DNA from: Mycobacteriales bacterium
GTDB lineage: Bacteria; Actinomycetota; Actinomycetes; Mycobacteriales; Jatrophihabitantaceae
Direction: 5' to 3'
NCBI GenBank assembly: GCA_038212215.1
Contig: JBBQUT010000008.1
Location: 82,854 to 106,853 of the forward strand
DNA length: 24,000 nt
The first letter of the stretch is position 1. Each line of letters starts with the position of its first letter. The position numbers and the translations under genes are program-made. Shown here piece by piece: positions 5,416-20,751 of the stretch. Under the pieces are notes generated by a model. That model was not told the origin of the DNA. It made no database searches and saw only the letters and a program-made list of their open reading frames with translations.

Positions 5416-6048
5416 ATGTCTGTGACTCCCGAACCCGCGGCGCCGTCGGCGACGATCGCGCGCTTCACCCGCGCCGAGCGCTACGTCCACCGACTCACCG
5501 CCGCGCTGATGATCGTCTGCATCCTCACCGCGGCGGTTCTCTACAACGGCACGCTCGCGATCCGCGTCGGGCATCGTCGCCAGATCGAACTCGTCCACGT
5601 CTACGCCGGGTTCGCGCTGCCCGTGCCGATGCTGCTCGGCTTGGCATTTGCCGCCTACCGCCACGATGTATCGCGCCTGAATCGCTTCACCCGCGCGGAT
5701 TGGCGTTGGCTGCGCTCGCGTACGCGCCGCGACGGCTCGATCCCGATCGGCAAGTTCAATGCCGGGCAGAAGCTGAACGCCAACCTCACCGCCGGCGCGA
5801 TTCTCGTCCTGCTGGGGACCGGCGTGATCATGTACTTTCCCAGCCTCACCCGCTTGGCTTGGCGTACCGGAGCGACCTTCGTGCACGACTGGTTCGCCTT
5901 GGCGATCGGGCTGCTCATTCTCGGCCACATCTACTTCGCAACGAAGGATCGCGAAGCTCGCCGAGGAATGCGCACCGGACGTGTCTCACGGGCGTGGGCC
6001 CGCGACGAGCACCCCGAATGGGTGGACGAACTCGACAGTTCGCGGTAA
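5416..6048 (+). CDS. Cytochrome b561 / Ni-hydrogenase-type b cytochrome family membrane protein (210 aa), likely redox partner of the molybdoenzyme
   Basis: I shortened the start from the ORF-track 5215 to ATG 5416, 13 nt after the upstream stop. FTRAERYVHRLTAALMIVCILTAAVLY...HVYAGFALP...GKFNAGQKL...FVHDWFALAIGLLILGHIY shows four TM helices with conserved His residues, typical of the PF01292-like dihaem cytochrome b family. Confidence 0.8.
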   Translation: MSVTPEPAAPSATIARFTRAERYVHRLTAALMIVCILTAAVLYNGTLAIRVGHRRQIELVHVYAGFALPVPMLLGLAFAAYRHDVSRLNRFTRADWRWLRSRTRRDGSIPIGKFNAGQKLNANLTAGAILVLLGTGVIMYFPSLTRLAWRTGATFVHDWFALAIGLLILGHIYFATKDREARRGMRTGRVSRAWARDEHPEWVDELDSSR

Positions 6049-6125
6049 CACGCCGGCTCCGCATGCACCGACCGTCGCGTCAGGCTCGAAGACGTGCCGA
6101 TCAGCGGCGATGAGCGCCCGCTGGG

Positions 6126-15054: not shown

Positions 15055-17369
15055 GCGGTCCTCCTTGGGTCGTTATCGGTCGGGGTGATGCGTGCCGCGA
15101 CGGCCAATTGGCCGAGGGCGAGGCCCGCGTCGCTGGGCGGCACAAGTCGATGCCGCAACACCTGGAATCCCACCGCTGCCAGGCGATCCACGCACAACGT
15201 CGTGAGCACGGCGTTGAGGAACACACCGCCGGAGAGCGCGACGCGACTCAGCCCGGTGCGGTTGCGCACCGCCTGGGCCTGCGCGAGAACGAGGTCGGCG
15301 ACCGCGTGGTGGAAGCGTGCAGCGACAACGTCCTCGGCTACTCCGGCGAGGACGTCCGCAGCCGCCGACGCGATGACCGGTGCTGCATCAAAATTCTCCG
15401 AGAAAGACCTGTCGCCGAAGGAGTACGGCCGCCCGCACCGGTCGAGCGCGCCACGGGCCACTTCTTCGAAACGCATCGCAGCCTCCGCCTCGTAGTCGCA
15501 GCGGTGACACACGCCGGTCAGCGAGGACATCGCGTCGAACAGCCGGCCCATGCTCGAAGTCGGCGTGCAACCGAAGCCGGTATCGAGTTGCCGGGCCAGC
15601 ACGCGGCGTTCGACTGCCGACCCTGCGGCGACGCACGGCAACCGCTCATCCCACACGACACCGGCCGCCCGCAGGTGCGACAGCGCCATGCGCCAGGGGT
15701 TACGCACCCCCGCATCACCGCCGGGAAGGGCGACGTAGCCGAGATGGGCCACCCGCTGGTACCCGTCGTAGTCGGCGAGCAGCACCTCGCCACCCCATAC
15801 GGCCCCATCGTCGCCGTAACCGGTGCCGTCGAAAGCGAATCCGATCACCCGTGACGATCCGTCGAACCCGTTCTCGGCCAGCGCGGCGGCGATGTGCGCA
15901 TGGTGGTGCTGCACCGTTCGCAGTGGCAGCCCGCACGAGCGGGCCCAAGCGCTGCTGCGGAACGCTGGGTGGCGGTCGGCGACGACGACTTCGGGACGGA
16001 CCTGCGTCAGCGCCGCCAGATGCGTGGTCGCGGTCTCGAACGCCGCCAGAGTGGCGAGATCGTCCATGTCGCCGATGTGCGCGGACATCCAGGCGTAGCG
16101 GCCTTCACCCATGCAGAACGTGTTCTTCAGGTCGCCGCCGACCGCGAGTGCGGGCCGCACGGGTATGGGCATCGCAATCGGCATCGGCGCATATCCACGG
16201 GAGCGGCGCACCGGCAACGGCGCTTCGCCGGCCGGTCGCACGATCGAGTCGTCGCACGGCACGTGGATCGGGCGGTCGTGGCCGAGCCAAGCGTCCGCAA
16301 GCGGGGCCAACCTGGTGCGCGCTTCAGCATCGTCAATGACGATCGGCTCACCCGAGACGTTCCCGCTGGTCATCACCAGCACGCGTGGGCCCGGTGGATC
16401 CCCCGCGAGCCCGAACAGCAGCTGATGAACTGGGGTGTAGGCCAGCATGACACCGAGATCGGGATGCGCTGGGGCGACCGCTTCGGCCACGACGACGGGG
16501 TGGCGTTTGGGTAGCAGCACGACGGGCCGACGCGGGTCGTTGAGCTGCGCGCGTGCCTCCTCGGACACCAGCACGATCGACTGCGCGCAAGCCAGATCAG
16601 CGACCATCACGGCAAATGGCTTGTCGCCGCGGTCTTTGCGTTTGCGCAGCGACGACACGGCGGCGCCGTTCGTCGCGTCGCAGGCCAGGTGATAGCCGCC
16701 CAGGCCCTTTACTGCGACGACGGCACCTGCCGACAGCGCACGGCGGGTCTCGGCCATCGCAACCCCACCGTGGACGTCGGCTGCGCCGGGACGGTACAGG
16801 GTCAGGGTCGGCCCGCACTGCGGGCAGGCGACGGTCTGGGCGTGGAAGCGGCGGTCCGCGGGGTCGGCATACTCGCTCTCGCAGCGTTCGCACAACGGGA
16901 GATCTGCCATCGTGGTGGCCGGTCGGTCGTAGGGCAACGCACGCACGATGGTGAAGCGGGGCCCGCAATTGGTGCAACTGATGAACGGGTGGCGGTAGCG
17001 ACGGTCGTCGGGGTCCGCGAGTTCGGCAAGGCAATCGGCGCAGGTCGCGATGTCTGGTGACACCAGCGTTCGCCCGCTGCCGCCTTGCGATCCGGCGATG
17101 CTGAAGCCGGTGCCCCCGGCGCAGGCGATCACCTCATTCGTCGTGCGTTCCACCCGAGCGAGCGGTGGCGCGTCGGCGCACACGCGCGCGCCGAATTCCG
17201 CGAGCGCGACCGTGTCACCCTCGACCTCGATCGTGACCCCGGCGGCGGTATTGCCGACGGAACCGCTGAGTCCGAGTTCGCAGGCCAGGGCGTAGACGAA
17301 GGGGCGAAAGCCAACGCCCTGGACGACACCTTCCACCTGGACGCGAAGGCGCGCGCGCGTGCTGTTCAT
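15045..17369 (-). CDS. hypF: Carbamoyltransferase HypF (774 aa)
   Basis: The acylphosphatase-like N-terminus is VEGVVQGVGFRPFVY. There are two zinc-finger pairs, CADCLAEL...CTNCGPRFT and CERCESEY...CPQCGP. A YrdC-like domain (VAVKGLGGYHLACDA) and a Kae1-like C-terminal domain follow. Confidence 0.95.
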   Translation of the reverse strand: MNSTRARLRVQVEGVVQGVGFRPFVYALACELGLSGSVGNTAAGVTIEVEGDTVALAEFGARVCADAPPLARVERTTNEVIACAGGTGFSIAGSQGGSGRTLVSPDIATCADCLAELADPDDRRYRHPFISCTNCGPRFTIVRALPYDRPATTMADLPLCERCESEYADPADRRFHAQTVACPQCGPTLTLYRPGAADVHGGVAMAETRRALSAGAVVAVKGLGGYHLACDATNGAAVSSLRKRKDRGDKPFAVMVADLACAQSIVLVSEEARAQLNDPRRPVVLLPKRHPVVVAEAVAPAHPDLGVMLAYTPVHQLLFGLAGDPPGPRVLVMTSGNVSGEPIVIDDAEARTRLAPLADAWLGHDRPIHVPCDDSIVRPAGEAPLPVRRSRGYAPMPIAMPIPVRPALAVGGDLKNTFCMGEGRYAWMSAHIGDMDDLATLAAFETATTHLAALTQVRPEVVVADRHPAFRSSAWARSCGLPLRTVQHHHAHIAAALAENGFDGSSRVIGFAFDGTGYGDDGAVWGGEVLLADYDGYQRVAHLGYVALPGGDAGVRNPWRMALSHLRAAGVVWDERLPCVAAGSAVERRVLARQLDTGFGCTPTSSMGRLFDAMSSLTGVCHRCDYEAEAAMRFEEVARGALDRCGRPYSFGDRSFSENFDAAPVIASAAADVLAGVAEDVVAARFHHAVADLVLAQAQAVRNRTGLSRVALSGGVFLNAVLTTLCVDRLAAVGFQVLRHRLVPPSDAGLALGQLAVAARITPTDNDPRRTACA

Positions 17370-18121
17370 TGCGCCTGCTCGATGAGCACGGCGTTGGTGC
17401 GCGCCAGCTGCTCGGCACTGCGCGACTCAAGTTGCGCAAGCTGATCGGGGGTCAGGATGTCGCACACCCAGTCCCAGTGCATCGCGACGTGCGCACCGAC
17501 GGTGAGCGTGGCTCGGTCCTCGCCCAGCAAAGACACACTGCCGACTGACCACGCAGCATTCTGCTCGACCGGTTCGTCCAGAGCGAGCAGCCCGTCGCGC
17601 AGGACGAGCGGACGCGACCGGACGCGCACCCGCGTGCCTTCGACAGCGACAATCTGTCCCCACCTGATTCGGCACTGCTGCAGGATCGACACAGCTACAG
17701 CGACGTTGATTCCCTTGCGCAGCAGGCCGACCCATGGATAGACGACGAAGACCTGGAAGCTATGGTGCGCACTTCCGGGGCTCCAACTGGCACCGGGTTG
17801 GCCGGCGAAGCGCGCTTGCAATGTGGTCATCACGTCGCGGGGGGCGACGGCGTCGAGCAGGTCGTTGCCGATCCAGTACGCCTCCACCACCCGCGCGTCG
17901 AGCGGGTCGGCGATCCCGGTGCGGGCGGCGATGAGTTGAAGATAGGCCCAGGCGCCGTCGAAGTGGCGCGCGTGGTCGGCGATCTGCTCGTCGCCACGTA
18001 GTAGGAGCGAGGTGTCTCTCGGGCCGCAGTAGCCGAGTTCGTTGGGCGGATAGGCGTAGCGCGCGAACAGGCTCGCTCCCGTTATGGCTGTTCGGGCGCC
18101 GGCCAACTCGGTAGCGCTCAC
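17366..18121 (-). CDS. Conserved hydrogenase-cluster protein of unknown function (251 aa; I believe DUF6390-like, unverified) with a HypC-like C-terminal segment
   Basis: I shortened the start to GTG 18121 (VSATELAG), which forms GTGA with the upstream hypC-paralog stop. The 3' end forms ATGA with the hypF start. The N-terminus has ARYAYPPNELGYCGP. For the C-terminus see the finding on HypC-like similarity. Confidence 0.75.
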   Translation of the reverse strand: MSATELAGARTAITGASLFARYAYPPNELGYCGPRDTSLLLRGDEQIADHARHFDGAWAYLQLIAARTGIADPLDARVVEAYWIGNDLLDAVAPRDVMTTLQARFAGQPGASWSPGSAHHSFQVFVVYPWVGLLRKGINVAVAVSILQQCRIRWGQIVAVEGTRVRVRSRPLVLRDGLLALDEPVEQNAAWSVGSVSLLGEDRATLTVGAHVAMHWDWVCDILTPDQLAQLESRSAEQLARTNAVLIEQAQ

Positions 18122-18367: not shown

Positions 18368-18946
18368 TCACCCTCCCCTCTGGAACCCAAGCTGCGCGGG
18401 CGGGTCGAGCCGGCCCGATCCCAAGGCACAGACCAGATTGTTGACCGCGGCGACCGCCTCGTCCACCGCGTCGTTCACCGGATCGCTCAGGCCGATGCCC
18501 TCGTCGAGGTCGGCGGGCACGCAGCCCACCAGATAGGTCGGGGGCAGCGTAGCCCCCATCGAGCCGAGGCTCGCCAGCACGGCGACCGGTGACATCGCGT
18601 GTGCGTCGAAGTCCGCGGCACCGATGTCGTCGGGCCCGACGGCCATCAGGGTAACCGTCCCGGGTGGAGCACCGGCCGGTCCATCGGGAGGTACCGCGTC
18701 CACTAGGACGAGCACGTCGACACCCTCCAGCAGGTCATAGGTCAGATACATCCCACGGATGCCGTAGTCGACGACGCGGACGTCCGCGGGTAGCGGCTCG
18801 GCCCGGGCACGCGACAGTAAAGCGGTCGCCACAGCCGGTCCGAATCCGTCGTCACCGAAGAAGATGTTTCCGATGCCGGCGACCAGAACGCGAACCCCCT
18901 GCTCAGACGTGATCTTCACCCCGGGTCGTGGTGTCGTTTGGTACAA
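18368..18946 (-). CDS. hupD: [NiFe]-hydrogenase maturation endopeptidase (HupD/HyaD/HybD family)
   Basis: VRVLVAGIGNIFFGDDGFGPAV matches the GxGNxxxxDDGxG motif. The sequence also has VVDYGIRGMYL, VLVDAV and DAHAMSP. The start is ambiguous: TTG 18946 as listed, or GTG 18919. Confidence 0.88.
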   Translation of the reverse strand: MYQTTPRPGVKITSEQGVRVLVAGIGNIFFGDDGFGPAVATALLSRARAEPLPADVRVVDYGIRGMYLTYDLLEGVDVLVLVDAVPPDGPAGAPPGTVTLMAVGPDDIGAADFDAHAMSPVAVLASLGSMGATLPPTYLVGCVPADLDEGIGLSDPVNDAVDEAVAAVNNLVCALGSGRLDPPAQLGFQRGG

Positions 18947-19001
18947 ACATCGTCGATCTCCTCCCTGGCGCTGCGACGGACTAGTGGCTTTCGCTCGGAC
19001 A

Positions 19002-19202
19002 TCACGGTGACTGCAGGTTCGGCGCTTCGGCGCCAGAGGATTGCGGGTCTACCGAGGTGTCGGACCGCTCGTCCGACCCGCCCGCCGGCCGGTCGACCGG
19101 ACCCCCGGAGGGGCCATCCGATCCGGTGTCACGCGAGCCGGGGGCACCGCGCTCGGCTTGCGATTCCTCGTCGAGATTCGTTCCTGCTACGGCGTCAGGC
19201 AT
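19002..19202 (-). CDS. Small acidic, Gly/Ser/Pro/Asp-rich, probably disordered protein (66 aa), unknown function
   Basis: ATG 19202 is preceded by a strong SD (TAGGAGGAGCT-ATG). The sequence has 13 D/E against 4 R/K and no Cys. My hand count gives GC3 of ~74%, lower than my impression of the neighbouring genes but still coding-like. It sits between co-oriented operon genes. Confidence 0.5.
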   Translation of the reverse strand: MPDAVAGTNLDEESQAERGAPGSRDTGSDGPSGGPVDRPAGGSDERSDTSVDPQSSGAEAPNLQSP

Positions 19203-19210
19203 AGCTCCTC

Positions 19211-19315
19211 CTACATGCTTCGCATCTTCAGGTACCGCTTGATGTCAGGCAGTGAACGCACGCCCATCACCAGCGCACCAGCGGCGAACGCGGCAATCGC
19301 AACCGTCGCCAGCAT
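19211..19315 (-). CDS. 34-aa single-TM micro-protein, unknown function
   Basis: MLATVAIAAFAAGALVMGVRSLPDIKRYLKMRSM has one hydrophobic helix and a basic amphipathic tail. ATG 19315 lies 11 nt after the upstream stop and is preceded by GTAGGA. The ORF-track N-terminal extension overlaps the upstream gene. Confidence 0.5.
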   Translation of the reverse strand: MLATVAIAAFAAGALVMGVRSLPDIKRYLKMRSM

Positions 19316-19326
19316 TCCTACAGCTC

Positions 19327-20751
19327 TCACGATCGACTCTCCTCTCGGTTGTCGGACTGCACCGGAACATGCGGCGCAAGCTCGTCGGGGGCGAAGTAGA
19401 GGTAGCGGCCGTACCACTCGTGCAGATCCGCGGCCGGATCGTCGATCAGCACGACCGCGACGTGTGTTTCACCGTCGACATCGAAATGGACGCCCGCGAC
19501 CTTCGCGACGCGCCCCGCGAAGAACAGATCCTGCGCGTCGGCGCGTCGGGACGGGTGCACCGTCACCATGCTGCCCGCCGATACCGCGATACCGCCGATG
19601 AGCACCTCGTCCGTGCCCGGCGAAACGCTTTCGTCGGCAGAAGGATCCCACCAAGGCACCGCGCCGCCGAAATCAGTGCTGCCGAAGTCCGAGTCGTCGA
19701 AGCCGGATGAAGCATCGACGACGCTCTCGATCGCGTGCGGGTCGCGGAGAATGCCGTGCAGTTGCTGCATGTCCTGCGCCGACATCGCATCACAGCGATC
19801 GATGATCTGCGCCGCCATCGGATCGGTAGCGCGCGCCGCAGCCTTCTCTGCATCGGTCAGGGTCATGACTCGCAGCGTCAAAATCTCGTCGATCTCGGTG
19901 CTGTCGAACAATGCACCTGCGCTCTGCTCCGCAATCTCGGGGTGATCGTAGAGAATGATCGGTGACACCAGCATCAGCGAGTTGTCACCGGGCGGTCCAG
20001 CAAGCACCGGCCAGCAACGATGCTGCTTACACTCTCGCGCTGCATTCGCGTCGGGTGGATCTGTCATGGATAGGGCTTCGGCGTGCTCGAGTGATACCAA
20101 CAGATGGGCGCCGATGAACGACGCAGAGATCGCCGTCTCGCGGTCGCTCACGGCTGAAATGTCGGCAACGTTGGCGACGTTTGCGATACTCACCGAGAGC
20201 CGGAGCACATCGCCGATGCTCGTCATGTGGACCTGCAGTTCACCACGCAATTCGCGGCGGGTGCGTACCAGCCGACCGGCGAGCGCGCCGCCGTCGTCCC
20301 GGATCTCGTCGATGTCCTCGCCCGCAGGTACATGCAGGGCAACGCATCGAGGGTCCCCGAGCTGCTCGAGACGCCACGGCCCGACCGTGATCTCTCGTTC
20401 GCGTGCTTCGTCCCAACTCAGCCATCGCTGTTCGCCGACGATGAGTTCGGGCACGAACTCGAATTCACCGGTGCGCCCGCAACGCTGCGCCGCGCGCCGC
20501 TGCAACTGTAGAAAGCGCAGGTGCACGGTCACCGTGGCGTCGGCGAGGACGGGCGCGTGGAGCAAGAATTGGGATTCGAGCGTGGCGTCCTCGCCGTGCC
20601 CGGACTCCATCGCGCCGACGGGTCCCAGCACGCCGAACTGCCAGCGGGACTGGTTCTTGGCGGAACTGGCGCGATATGGGTAGAGCAGGTAACCCTCGTA
20701 CAGTACGGCGTCAGCAACGGTGCGCGCGTAACCCAGGCTGTCGGCGCTCAT
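19327..20751 (-). CDS. Conserved hydrogenase-cluster protein of unknown function (474 aa)
   Basis: I shortened the start to ATG 20751 (MSADSLGY...), which forms ATGA with the upstream stop. The ORF-track start at 21150 would overlap the upstream gene by 400 nt in another frame. The N-terminal motif is VLYEGYLLYPYRASSAKNQSRWQFGVLGP. I recognise no catalytic domain. Confidence 0.8.
   Translation of the reverse strand: MSADSLGYARTVADAVLYEGYLLYPYRASSAKNQSRWQFGVLGPVGAMESGHGEDATLESQFLLHAPVLADATVTVHLRFLQLQRRAAQRCGRTGEFEFVPELIVGEQRWLSWDEAREREITVGPWRLEQLGDPRCVALHVPAGEDIDEIRDDGGALAGRLVRTRRELRGELQVHMTSIGDVLRLSVSIANVANVADISAVSDRETAISASFIGAHLLVSLEHAEALSMTDPPDANAARECKQHRCWPVLAGPPGDNSLMLVSPIILYDHPEIAEQSAGALFDSTEIDEILTLRVMTLTDAEKAAARATDPMAAQIIDRCDAMSAQDMQQLHGILRDPHAIESVVDASSGFDDSDFGSTDFGGAVPWWDPSADESVSPGTDEVLIGGIAVSAGSMVTVHPSRRADAQDLFFAGRVAKVAGVHFDVDGETHVAVVLIDDPAADLHEWYGRYLYFAPDELAPHVPVQSDNREESRS

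What the first reader, a model, noticed from the sequence alone, without database searches (positions are those of the whole stretch)
19002..19315. Two likely unannotated micro-proteins (34-aa TM peptide and 66-aa acidic disordered protein) between the unknown block and the protease
The 314-bp gap in an otherwise gap-free operon contains two small co-oriented ORFs. The first is MLATVAIAAFAAGALVMGVRSLPDIKRYLKMRSM, one TM helix plus a basic tail. The second is a D/E/G/S/P-rich 66-aa ORF with a very strong SD (AGGAGGAG) 4 nt before its ATG.

Both have GC3 of ~75% by my hand count, which is coding-like but below my impression of the neighbouring genes. Automatic pipelines often miss ORFs this short. 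A TM peptide plus an acidic partner could anchor or regulate the otherwise soluble-looking hydrogenase or its maturation machinery.
Basis: partly seen in the sequence, partly recalled or inferred. Interest (0 to 1): 0.6.

Follow-up and report, generated by a model that had tools for sequence, protein, structure and literature searches.

The report
Two small hydrogenase-operon helper proteins
Both small reading frames are real, conserved genes in the operon for the hydrogenase that scavenges hydrogen from air. One is an already catalogued one-helix membrane micro-protein (DUF6893); the other belongs to an unnamed family of floppy acidic proteins that some bacteria fuse to a hydrogenase-assembly factor.

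Summary
Both ORFs exist on the minus strand and are real genes.

**ORF 1** is Pfam PF21833 (DUF6893, 57-58 bits against a cut-off of 24.6).
- Its conserved start is GTG 19330, giving 39 aa rather than 34. This start overlaps the upstream stop codon as GTGA, so the "314-bp gap" is not a gap.
- DUF6893 lay next to the maturation protease in every group 1h cluster inspected, including C. necator pHG1.
- This scan has already reported it several times on other genomes as an untested membrane-anchor candidate.

**ORF 2** (66 aa, charge -9.5, no His or Cys, predicted disordered) matches no Pfam, NCBIfam or PDB entry, but it is conserved.
- It has syntenic homologues in 10 of 60 relatives.
- All of them keep a Shine-Dalgarno (SD) site and start codon at the same place.
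- pN/pS is 0.49 with no stops, and this frame scores best of the six.
- About 128 "hypothetical proteins" and 80 clusters at 50% identity carry an invariant EEPQxERGxxGSRDTGSDxPxGGPxDRPxG core.
- It was found only in hydrogenase clusters and in about half of those that have DUF6893.
- It is recurrently fused to a second acidic "PPYEGR" protein. In some mycobacteria it is fused to the C-terminus of DUF6390, a HypC-like maturation factor.

My best reading is that ORF 2 is a detachable disordered tail module of the maturation machinery. It is not specifically DUF6893's partner. Function is untested for both genes.

The parts
19211..19330 (-). DUF6893 micro-protein gene, 39 codons from GTG 19330 to TAG 19213-19211. 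It encodes one hydrophobic helix followed by the conserved C-terminal SLPDIKRYLKMRSM.
   Evidence: PF21833 scores 56.9 bits (39 aa) and 58.1 bits (34 aa) against a cut-off of 24.6. The start codon is conserved at -39 in 9 of 9 relatives. The GTGA overlap with the upstream stop is seen.
19211..19315 (-).
   Evidence: The ATG at this position is present in only 4 of 9 relatives. A gene caller used it for P0121.
19337..19346 (-). SD GAGAGGAGAG for the DUF6893 gene, lying inside the 3' end of the upstream gene. The GGAG core is 8 nt before the GTG.
   Evidence: Sequence. The equivalent SD is conserved in relatives.
19002..19202 (-). 66-aa acidic, disordered protein (here called AC66). The conserved core spans residues about 10-41; the variable acidic tail ends in NLQSP.
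   Evidence: Syntenic homologues at E 1e-16 to 2e-7. SD and start conserved. pN/pS 0.49 with 0 stops, the best of six frames. 128 homologues. 80 representative clusters. AF2 pLDDT 65 with no secondary structure.
19205..19212 (-). SD AGGAGGAG for AC66, overlapping the TAG stop of the DUF6893 gene.
18947..19001 (-). 55-nt spacer before the protease gene. It holds the protease SD (AGGGAGGAG, 18966-18958). In relatives this position holds a third acidic gene (the PPYEGR family), which is missing here.
18368..18946 (-). HycI/HupD-type hydrogenase maturation endopeptidase, the constant neighbour of DUF6893.
   Evidence: PF01750 E 4e-13 and TIGR00072 E 1.4e-32.
17366..18121 (-). DUF6390 protein. In some mycobacteria its homologue carries the AC66 and PPYEGR modules as a C-terminal tail.
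   Evidence: PF19927. Fusion proteins P0146, P0204 and P0205. HypC is the top fold match of its beta-module.
19327..20751 (-). Upstream PHG069-like protein of unknown function (474 aa). Its stop codon overlaps the DUF6893 start.
   Evidence: It lies directly upstream of DUF6893 in 80 of 80 Mycobacterium loci.

Best explanation
Both ORFs are translated genes of the group 1h (Hhy-type) [NiFe]-hydrogenase operon.

(1) ORF 1 is the 39-aa DUF6893 micro-protein.
- It has one membrane-spanning helix. The topology is probably N-terminus out, with the invariant basic tail (PD-x-[KR]-RY-[LM]-[KR]-x-R-x-M at the C-terminus) on the cytoplasmic face.
- It is translationally coupled to the upstream PHG069-like gene.
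- In other clusters it always sits beside the maturation endopeptidase.
- The inferred role is to bring the last maturation step, or the finished enzyme, to the membrane.

(2) ORF 2 (AC66) belongs to an uncatalogued family of intrinsically disordered acidic proteins built around an invariant linear motif, EEPQxERGxxGSRDTGSDxPxGGPxDRPxG.
- It behaves as a detachable module. It occurs free, fused to a second acidic PPYEGR module, or fused to the C-terminus of the HypC-like maturation factor DUF6390.
- The inferred role is to act in trans as a flexible acidic tail of that maturation machinery, binding a partner through the conserved motif. It is unlikely to be a specific partner of DUF6893.

What is shown: coding status, conservation, synteny, fusions and predicted disorder. 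What is inferred: membrane topology, binding partners and any effect on the hydrogenase.

My odds:
- Both are real genes: 0.9.
- Both are dedicated to Hhy or its maturation: 0.8.
- AC66 works with DUF6390: 0.4.
- DUF6893 tethers something to the membrane: 0.35.
For: DUF6893:
- HMM score above the cut-off.
- Start and SD conserved.
- All 20 of 20 DUF6084-positive relatives carry it.
- In a 301-genome phylum sample, 26 of the 27 genomes scoring above the cut-off also carry DUF6084, and where both places were listed on one contig DUF6893 lay 1.5-2.6 kb away on the same strand.
- It lies next to the protease in Streptomyces, MAGs, Mycobacterium, the Kitasatospora plasmid and C. necator pHG1.
- In 80 Mycobacterium species the unknown gene is directly upstream in 80 of 80. 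The protease is directly downstream in 74 and starts by overlap in 5 more.
- The N-terminus is ME[VI] and the C-terminal tail is basic, which fits N-out, C-in by the positive-inside rule.
- M. smegmatis Hhy is membrane-bound and resists cholate, yet has no predicted transmembrane segment (10.1101/769216).

AC66:
- Ten relatives have a syntenic homologue of 64-70 aa with SD and start in register.
- Its frame has the lowest pN/pS (0.49 against 1.2-1.7) and no stops. Third codon positions vary twice as much as first and second.
- Pairwise dN/dS is 0.11-0.70.
- There are 15-19 invariant residues across 22-25 sequences.
- The same gene order is found in S. niveus and in MAGs.
- In the searched relatives it occurs only in genomes that have DUF6893 (11 of 11).
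- Fusions seen: AC66 + PPYEGR in one 150-165 aa protein; PPYEGR + the AC66 C-terminal half in another class; and DUF6390 + AC66 + PPYEGR in three clusters that are 68-70% identical to the first over the fused tail, located inside an hhy/hyp cluster.
- The DUF6390 beta-module has HypC as its top fold match.
- AF2 predicts disorder.
Against: - There is no expression, proteomic or genetic evidence.
- AC66 is dispensable in many clusters. No match was found in five hhy- or DUF6893-carrying genomes with all or nearly all candidates scored, nor within 3 kb of DUF6893 in 80 Mycobacterium loci.
- The window's copy lacks the widely conserved C-terminal PxGDQGG end.
- The window's genome has lost the PPYEGR partner gene.
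- AF2 of the natural fusion shows no docking of the tail onto DUF6390 (pLDDT 35-64).
- The HypC fold match is weak (E about 0.01-0.03).
- C. necator has DUF6893, yet from my own knowledge, not checked here, its enzyme was purified as a soluble protein. That weakens a simple anchor model.
- DUF6893's tightest linkage is to the protease, not to the structural subunits.
Confidence: 0.55

Rival explanations
1. The acidic protein is the dedicated electrostatic partner of the basic tail of DUF6893, and together they anchor or regulate the hydrogenase at the membrane.
For: The two genes are adjacent and tightly packed here (8 nt apart) and in 8 relatives, in S. niveus and in MAGs. Their charges are opposite, +4.5 and -9.5. 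AC66 was never found in a genome lacking DUF6893.
Against: DUF6893 occurs without AC66 in 11 of 22 relatives and in 80 of 80 Mycobacterium loci. In two families AC66 follows hypE, 3-4 kb from DUF6893. Its fusions are to the PPYEGR protein and to DUF6390, never to DUF6893. The invariant AC66 motif is G/P/R/D-patterned rather than simply acidic.
Confidence: 0.12
2. AC66, together with the PPYEGR protein, is a metal-buffering acidic peptide. It would be a carboxylate-rich Ni(II)/Fe(II) reservoir for maturation, comparable to the disordered metal-binding tails of SlyD, HypB or UreE.
For: It is rich in Asp and Glu, disordered, encoded among hyp genes, and fused to a HypC-like (iron-handling) factor in some genomes.
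Against: It has no His and no Cys, the usual Ni ligands of those tails. The conservation is a precise G/P/R/D motif rather than a compositional bias.
Confidence: 0.12
3. AC66 is a general protective hydrophilin-like protein that stabilises the hydrogenase during dormancy or desiccation, without a specific maturation role.
For: It is a highly hydrophilic disordered polyanion (GRAVY -1.11). Group 1h enzymes are expressed in starvation and in spores (established knowledge; one search shows hhy induction at slow growth).
Against: A 30-residue invariant motif and domain fusions argue for a specific partner. The family is small, 80 clusters in 1.84 billion representatives, and was found only in hydrogenase clusters.
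Confidence: 0.08
4. The 66-codon ORF is not functional as a protein. It would be a chance open frame in GC-rich DNA, or a spacer translated only to couple the protease gene.
For: GC3 is slightly below that of neighbours (0.73). The product is low-complexity and disordered. Many clusters do without it.
Against: The frame has the lowest pN/pS of the six, no stops in any of 11 genomes, and a conserved SD and start. Residues are invariant across orders. The module persists when moved or fused.
Confidence: 0.03
5. AC66 is a Pup- or ubiquitin-like small protein modifier: about 65 aa, acidic and disordered, with many homologues ending in GDQGG.
For: Size, disorder, actinobacterial distribution and the conserved Gly-Gly C-terminus in many homologues.
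Against: There is no Pfam match to Pup or to any family even at E up to 10. The window's protein and its closest relatives lack the GG end. The terminus is GG, not GGQ or GGE. No ligase-like gene was seen in the Pfam-annotated clusters.
Confidence: 0.03

Closest known systems
Pfam PF21833 (DUF6893), which NCBI names 'DUF6893 family small protein'. Members include the peptide encoded just after the protease on C. necator H16 pHG1, called PHG071 in earlier scan notes.
   Same: ORF 1 matches the full 32-position model at 57-58 bits. It has the same length class, the same hydrophobic helix plus C-terminal PD-x-[KR]-RY-L-K-x-R-x-M, and the same position beside the group 1h maturation protease.
   Different: Nothing substantive. 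Here it lies upstream of the protease with two arrangements of neighbours, whereas in pHG1, the Kitasatospora plasmid and family f31 it lies downstream. The family has no tested function, and no paper in the searchable library mentions it.
HypC/HupF-type chaperones and the DUF6390 (PF19927) protein of group 1h clusters.
   Same: In some mycobacteria AC66 is the C-terminal extension of DUF6390. The beta-module of DUF6390 best matches HypC structures 3vyr, 3vyt and 2z1c. AC66 therefore probably works in the same maturation step.
   Different: AC66 has no fold and no sequence similarity to HypC. In this window it is a separate gene, three genes upstream of DUF6390.
HucM, the membrane-associated stalk subunit of the group 2a hydrogenase Huc (Grinter et al. 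2023, PMC10017518; details from my own knowledge).
   Same: It is a small operon-encoded extra protein that explains how a subunit set without transmembrane segments contacts the membrane. That is the role proposed for DUF6893 with Hhy.
   Different: There is no homology. HucM is a much longer helical scaffold with a solved structure and a shown role. DUF6893 is a 39-aa single helix with no data.
Disordered metal-binding tails of Ni chaperones (SlyD, some HypB, UreE).
   Same: They are flexible, charged appendages of hydrogenase or urease maturation factors that can be fused or separate.
   Different: Those tails are rich in His and Cys. AC66 has neither, and it has a fixed G/P/R/D motif.
Pup (prokaryotic ubiquitin-like protein, PF05639).
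   Same: About 64 aa, acidic, intrinsically disordered and actinobacterial. Many AC66 homologues end in Gly-Gly.
   Different: There is no HMM match. The window's protein ends in QSP. It has no GGQ/GGE end and no pafA/dop context.

Membership tests
Pfam PF21833 DUF6893 | Whole-protein HMM score above the gathering cut-off of 24.6 bits. | tested here: met
   58.1 bits for the 34-aa version and 56.9 bits for the 39-aa version, covering model positions 1-32 of 32.
Pfam PF21833 DUF6893 | A 33-40 aa product with one hydrophobic helix and an invariant C-terminal P-D-x-x-R-Y...R-x-M end. | tested here: met
   Alignments. Invariant residues are M1, G5, G23, P28, D29, R32, Y33, R37 and M39. The product is 39 aa in 79 of 80 Mycobacterium species.
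Pfam PF21833 DUF6893 | Gene lies beside the HycI-type endopeptidase of a group 1h hydrogenase cluster. | tested here: met
   In the window only AC66 lies between them. Elsewhere the two are directly adjacent.
Pfam PF21833 DUF6893 | Insertion in the cytoplasmic membrane. | not testable with these tools
   The only indications are a 22-residue hydrophobic stretch and the charge distribution.
AC66 family (unnamed; defined here by alignments A1 and A2) | Invariant core E-x-Q-x-x-R-G-x-x-G-x-R-D-x-G-x-D-x-P-x-G-G-P-x-D-R-P-x-G in a protein of about 65-70 aa. | tested here: met
   The window protein carries all 19 invariant positions of A2. The profile scores it at E 4.6e-28.
AC66 family (unnamed; defined here by alignments A1 and A2) | Encoded inside a group 1h hydrogenase/hyp cluster. 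| tested here: met
   All syntenic loci examined.
AC66 family (unnamed; defined here by alignments A1 and A2) | C-terminal P-x-G-D-Q-G-G (or G-G-G) end, seen in most homologues. | tested here: not met
   The window protein ends in NLQSP, as do its closest relatives. This feature is therefore not universal in the family.
Pup / ubiquitin-like modifiers | Match to PF05639, or a C-terminal GGQ/GGE. | tested here: not met
   No Pfam family at E up to 10. The C-terminus is QSP.
Canonical [NiFe] maturation factors (HypA-F, HupF-K) | Match to the Pfam or NCBIfam models of these families. | tested here: not met
   No Pfam or NCBIfam hit for AC66. No PDB sequence hit with the family profile at E up to 10.
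His-rich Ni-binding chaperone tails (SlyD, HypB, UreE type) | Clusters of His or Cys ligands. | tested here: not met
   There are no His or Cys among the 66 residues.

The most novel reading that the evidence does not exclude
DUF6893, AC66, the PPYEGR protein and DUF6390 together form a membrane-proximal maturation and tethering complex specific to atmospheric-H2 hydrogenases. The one-helix peptide would recruit the endopeptidase and the newly processed enzyme to the membrane. The disordered acidic modules, attached to a HypC-like chaperone, would hand over or shield the large subunit. This would explain the long-unexplained, detergent-resistant membrane association of Hhy, whose known subunits have no transmembrane segment.
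Probability: 0.12. Interest if true: 0.7.

Novelty: new member of a known kind. Interest (0 to 1): 0.4.

Why it matters
Group 1h hydrogenases carry out much of the soil sink for atmospheric H2. How they are assembled, and how the mycobacterial enzyme is held at the membrane without any transmembrane subunit, is still unresolved (10.1101/769216).

DUF6893 is the only predicted membrane element in these clusters. That makes it a cheap knockout target, although this idea has already been raised several times in this scan.

It is uncatalogued, carries a sharply conserved linear motif, and has recurrent fusions that point to a concrete partner (DUF6390, which is HypC-like). An anonymous "hypothetical protein" thereby becomes a testable maturation-factor hypothesis. 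It also gives annotators a motif with which to name about 130 orphan small proteins.

Tried and rejected
- **Non-coding explanations for the region.** Rfam gave only a chance miRNA hit at E 0.71. No promoter or minus-strand terminator was found.
- **AC66 in plasmids.** tblastn of AC66 against plasmids gave no match.
- **AC66 in PDB.** The family profile against PDB sequences gave no match at E up to 10.
- **AC66 and PPYEGR as paralogues.** hhalign probability was 0.4%, so they are not homologous.
- **AF2.** AC66 alone is disordered. In the natural DUF6390-AC66 fusion the tail stays at low confidence and does not dock, so this was uninformative about binding.
- **A retracted inference of mine.** I first concluded that C. 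necator pHG1 and a Kitasatospora plasmid lack DUF6893. That came from a too-strict regular expression. After a lead from earlier scan notes I found the peptide after the protease in both, at 38.9 and 47 bits. The argument "the soluble enzyme lacks the anchor" is withdrawn.
- **M. smegmatis.** I could not confirm its peptide directly. The one genome-contig scan returned 80 other Mycobacterium species. The literature shows only that MSMEG_2714, a "hypothetical protein", sits at the right position and is co-induced with the operon.
- **Tool limits.** Alignment A3 was too diverse for the search for related loci. The 39-aa query was too short for the search for homologous proteins. A 41-aa query found only 3 candidates.
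- **Discarded hits.** The long hits P0156, P0158, P0178, P0194, P0207 and P0208 look like frameshifted gene calls and were not used.

Full report
**Setting.** The window is high-GC actinobacterial DNA. The closest named homologues come from Jatrophihabitans and Mycobacterium MAGs. On the minus strand it carries a group 1h [NiFe]-hydrogenase operon in this order:
- hhyL (partial)
- NifU-like HhyE
- DUF5947
- DUF6084
- a 474-aa protein with no Pfam match
- the two small ORFs
- a HycI/HupD-type endopeptidase
- a HypC-like gene
- DUF6390
- HypF

**Observation.** The SD before the 66-codon ORF is AGGAGGAG at 19212-19205, overlapping the TAG stop of the first ORF, with ATG at 19202. GC3 is 0.70 and 0.73 against 0.76-0.87 in the neighbours. 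No Rfam family, promoter or minus-strand terminator offers a non-coding explanation.

**ORF 1 is DUF6893, and it is 39 codons.**
- Pfam PF21833 matches at 58.1 bits (34-aa version) and 56.9 bits (39-aa version), against a cut-off of 24.6.
- In nine syntenic relatives a GTG or ATG lies exactly 39 codons before the stop, behind a GAGAGGAG-type SD. In six of them it overlaps the upstream stop as GTGA or ATGA.
- In the window this start is GTG 19330, overlapping TGA 19329-19327. The "314-bp gap" is therefore two tightly packed genes plus a 55-nt spacer.
- The product is 39 aa in 79 of 80 Mycobacterium species. There the N-terminus is ME[VI] and the C-terminus is basic...RYLKLRRM. By the positive-inside rule this suggests N-out, C-in.

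**Distribution of DUF6893.**
- All 20 of the 61 related genomes that carry the group 1h marker DUF6084 also carry DUF6893.
- In an even sample of 301 genomes of the phylum, 26 of the 27 genomes scoring above the cut-off also have DUF6084. Where both places were listed on one contig, DUF6893 lay 1.5-2.6 kb downstream on the same strand.
- The exception, G302, is a Mycobacterium with hypA-hypB-DUF6893-protease-hypC-hypF. It looks like a cluster that has lost its structural genes.
- DUF6893 was adjacent to the protease in every cluster inspected. It is upstream in Mycobacteriales and Streptomyces. It is downstream in another class (family f31), in a Kitasatospora plasmid and on C. necator pHG1.
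- I had first concluded that the last two lacked it. A lead from earlier scan notes made me re-check, and the peptides score 47 and 38.9 bits.
- This scan has reported DUF6893 at least six times before on other genomes, with the same "untested membrane-anchor candidate" reading. No searchable paper mentions the family.
- In M. smegmatis, Hhy is exclusively membrane-bound and resists 5% cholate, although no transmembrane region is predicted in its known subunits (10.1101/769216). A "hypothetical protein", MSMEG_2714, lies between MSMEG_2715 and the protease MSMEG_2713 and is co-induced with the operon (PMC5445863). I could not verify that MSMEG_2714 is the DUF6893 gene.

**ORF 2 (AC66) is a real gene of an uncatalogued family.**
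- It matches no Pfam family even at E up to 10, no NCBIfam model (searched to E 0.1), and no PDB sequence at E up to 10.
- Ten of 60 related genomes have a homologue at E 1e-16 to 2e-7 with no internal stop.
- In eight of them it sits between DUF6893 and the protease.
- Every copy has an SD and a start in register, giving 64-70 aa.
- On a codon alignment, the proposed frame has mean pN/pS 0.49 and no stops in 11 sequences. The other frames give 1.2-1.7 with 4-12 stops. The antisense frame that shares wobble positions gives 0.55 with one stop. Third codon positions differ twice as often as first and second.
- Pairwise dN/dS is 0.11-0.70.
- A search of 5.8 billion proteins found 128 homologues of 65-89 aa. 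Every source name listed is "hypothetical protein", none has a Pfam domain, and they include Streptomyces niveus, Modestobacter and Mycobacterium MAG entries. The window's own 66-aa product is already a gene call there.
- A profile search of 1.84 billion representatives found only 80 clusters, so the family is small.
- The core is sharply conserved, with 15-19 invariant residues forming EEPQxERGxxGSRDTGSDxPxGGPxDRPxG.
- The protein has charge -9.5 and no His or Cys.
- AF2 gives pLDDT 65, pTM 0.15 and no secondary structure.

**What AC66 travels with.**
- The order hhyS-hhyL-NifU-DUF5947-DUF6084-unknown-DUF6893-AC66-(third gene)-protease recurs in S. niveus and in MAG contigs.
- The optional third gene encodes another acidic, disordered protein of 70-135 aa. 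It has the motifs PPYEGR, SPSDEQP and GPSHxxGTG and no Pfam match. It is not homologous to AC66.
- The window's genome lacks this third gene, although both congeners have it.
- In a second family of the order, AC66 and the PPYEGR gene follow hypE instead.
- In another class, a single 134-160 aa protein after hypE has PPYEGR at its N-terminus and the AC66 C-terminal half at its end.
- Elsewhere, AC66 and PPYEGR are fused in the opposite order in 150-165 aa proteins.
- Most informative are three protein clusters, 68-70% identical to the first over the fused tail. The first is from Mycobacterium sp. SWH-M5 and has 8 member sequences. Each is DUF6390 followed directly by AC66 and PPYEGR. They are encoded in an hhy/hyp cluster after hypF, and that cluster has DUF6893 alone before the protease.
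- An AF2 model of this fusion gives a confident beta-module plus helix. Its best PDB fold matches are HypC structures (3vyr, 3vyt, 2z1c; TM 0.64-0.82 on the target, weak E-values). The acidic tail stays disordered and undocked.
- AC66 is not universal. It was found in 11 of 22 DUF6893-positive relatives. It was not found in five hhy- or DUF6893-carrying genomes with all or nearly all candidates scored, nor within 3 kb of DUF6893 in 80 Mycobacterium species.

**Interpretation.**
- Both are genes dedicated to the Hhy system.
- DUF6893's fixed neighbour is the endopeptidase. The most economical idea is that it places the final processing step, or the finished enzyme, at the membrane. That is inference only, and it is weakened by the presence of the peptide in C. 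necator.
- AC66 behaves as a movable, disordered module with a specific linear motif. Its fusion partners point to the PPYEGR protein and to the HypC-like DUF6390 rather than to DUF6893. I therefore read it as an in-trans tail of the maturation machinery.
- The rivals (electrostatic partner of DUF6893, metal buffer, protective hydrophilin, Pup-like tag, spurious ORF) are listed with their odds.

**Verdict.**
- One half is already catalogued and has been found repeatedly by this scan.
- The other half is a new, small, well-defined family with a concrete, testable partner hypothesis but no functional data.
- Interest is moderate.

Noticed in passing
window 18947-19001; L002:1712-2005, L003:1198-1479, L009:1709-2020: A third acidic, disordered gene family (motifs PPYEGR, SPSDEQP and GPSHxxGTG; 70-135 aa; no Pfam match) follows AC66 in most relatives. 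It is absent from the whole genome of the window, although both congeneric genomes have it. This looks like a recent deletion of about 290 nt.
   Followed up: partly
G017:C1:2277875-2277967 and 2284910-2285002; G032:C216:27172-27264 and 34428-34520; also G008, G029, G059: Several relatives carry a second DUF6893 copy. In G017 and G032 it lies about 7 kb from the first on the opposite strand; in G008 and G029 it is 7-8 kb away on the same strand; in G059 it is on another contig. I did not examine their contexts. An earlier scan note also describes an orphan copy after glpK in another genome.
   Followed up: no
L040 (G302:C1:2942800-2954900), DUF6893 at 5993-6112: This Mycobacterium genome has hypA-hypB-DUF6893-protease-hypC-hypF...hypE but no DUF6084 and no structural genes nearby. 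It appears to be a deletion remnant of an hhy cluster that kept the peptide-protease pair.
   Followed up: partly
L127 versus L128, 5790-5909: The NCBI annotation of GCA_001905305.1 (Mycobacterium sp. SWH-M5) leaves the DUF6893 gene uncalled, while gene calls on an identical Logan contig include it. The PLSDB table for the M. intracellulare plasmid NZ_CP012886.2 also omits it (L029:6973-7092).
   Followed up: yes
alignment A1, C-termini; L033-L039: Most AC66 homologues across classes end in P-x-G-D-Q-G-G (or GGG). The window's clade has lost this end (NLQSP or NLQTP). I have no explanation for the Gly-Gly terminus.
   Followed up: partly
window 18916-18966: The protease start is ambiguous. The strong SD AGGGAGGAG (18966-18958) is best spaced for an out-of-frame ATG (18950-18948). 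The in-frame starts are TTG 18946 and GTG 18919. An earlier scan note had already flagged this.
   Followed up: no
L127:10074-10814: A 246-aa protein with no Pfam match lies between the DUF6390 fusion and a SIS-domain (GmhA-like) gene in the mycobacterial hyp cluster.
   Followed up: no
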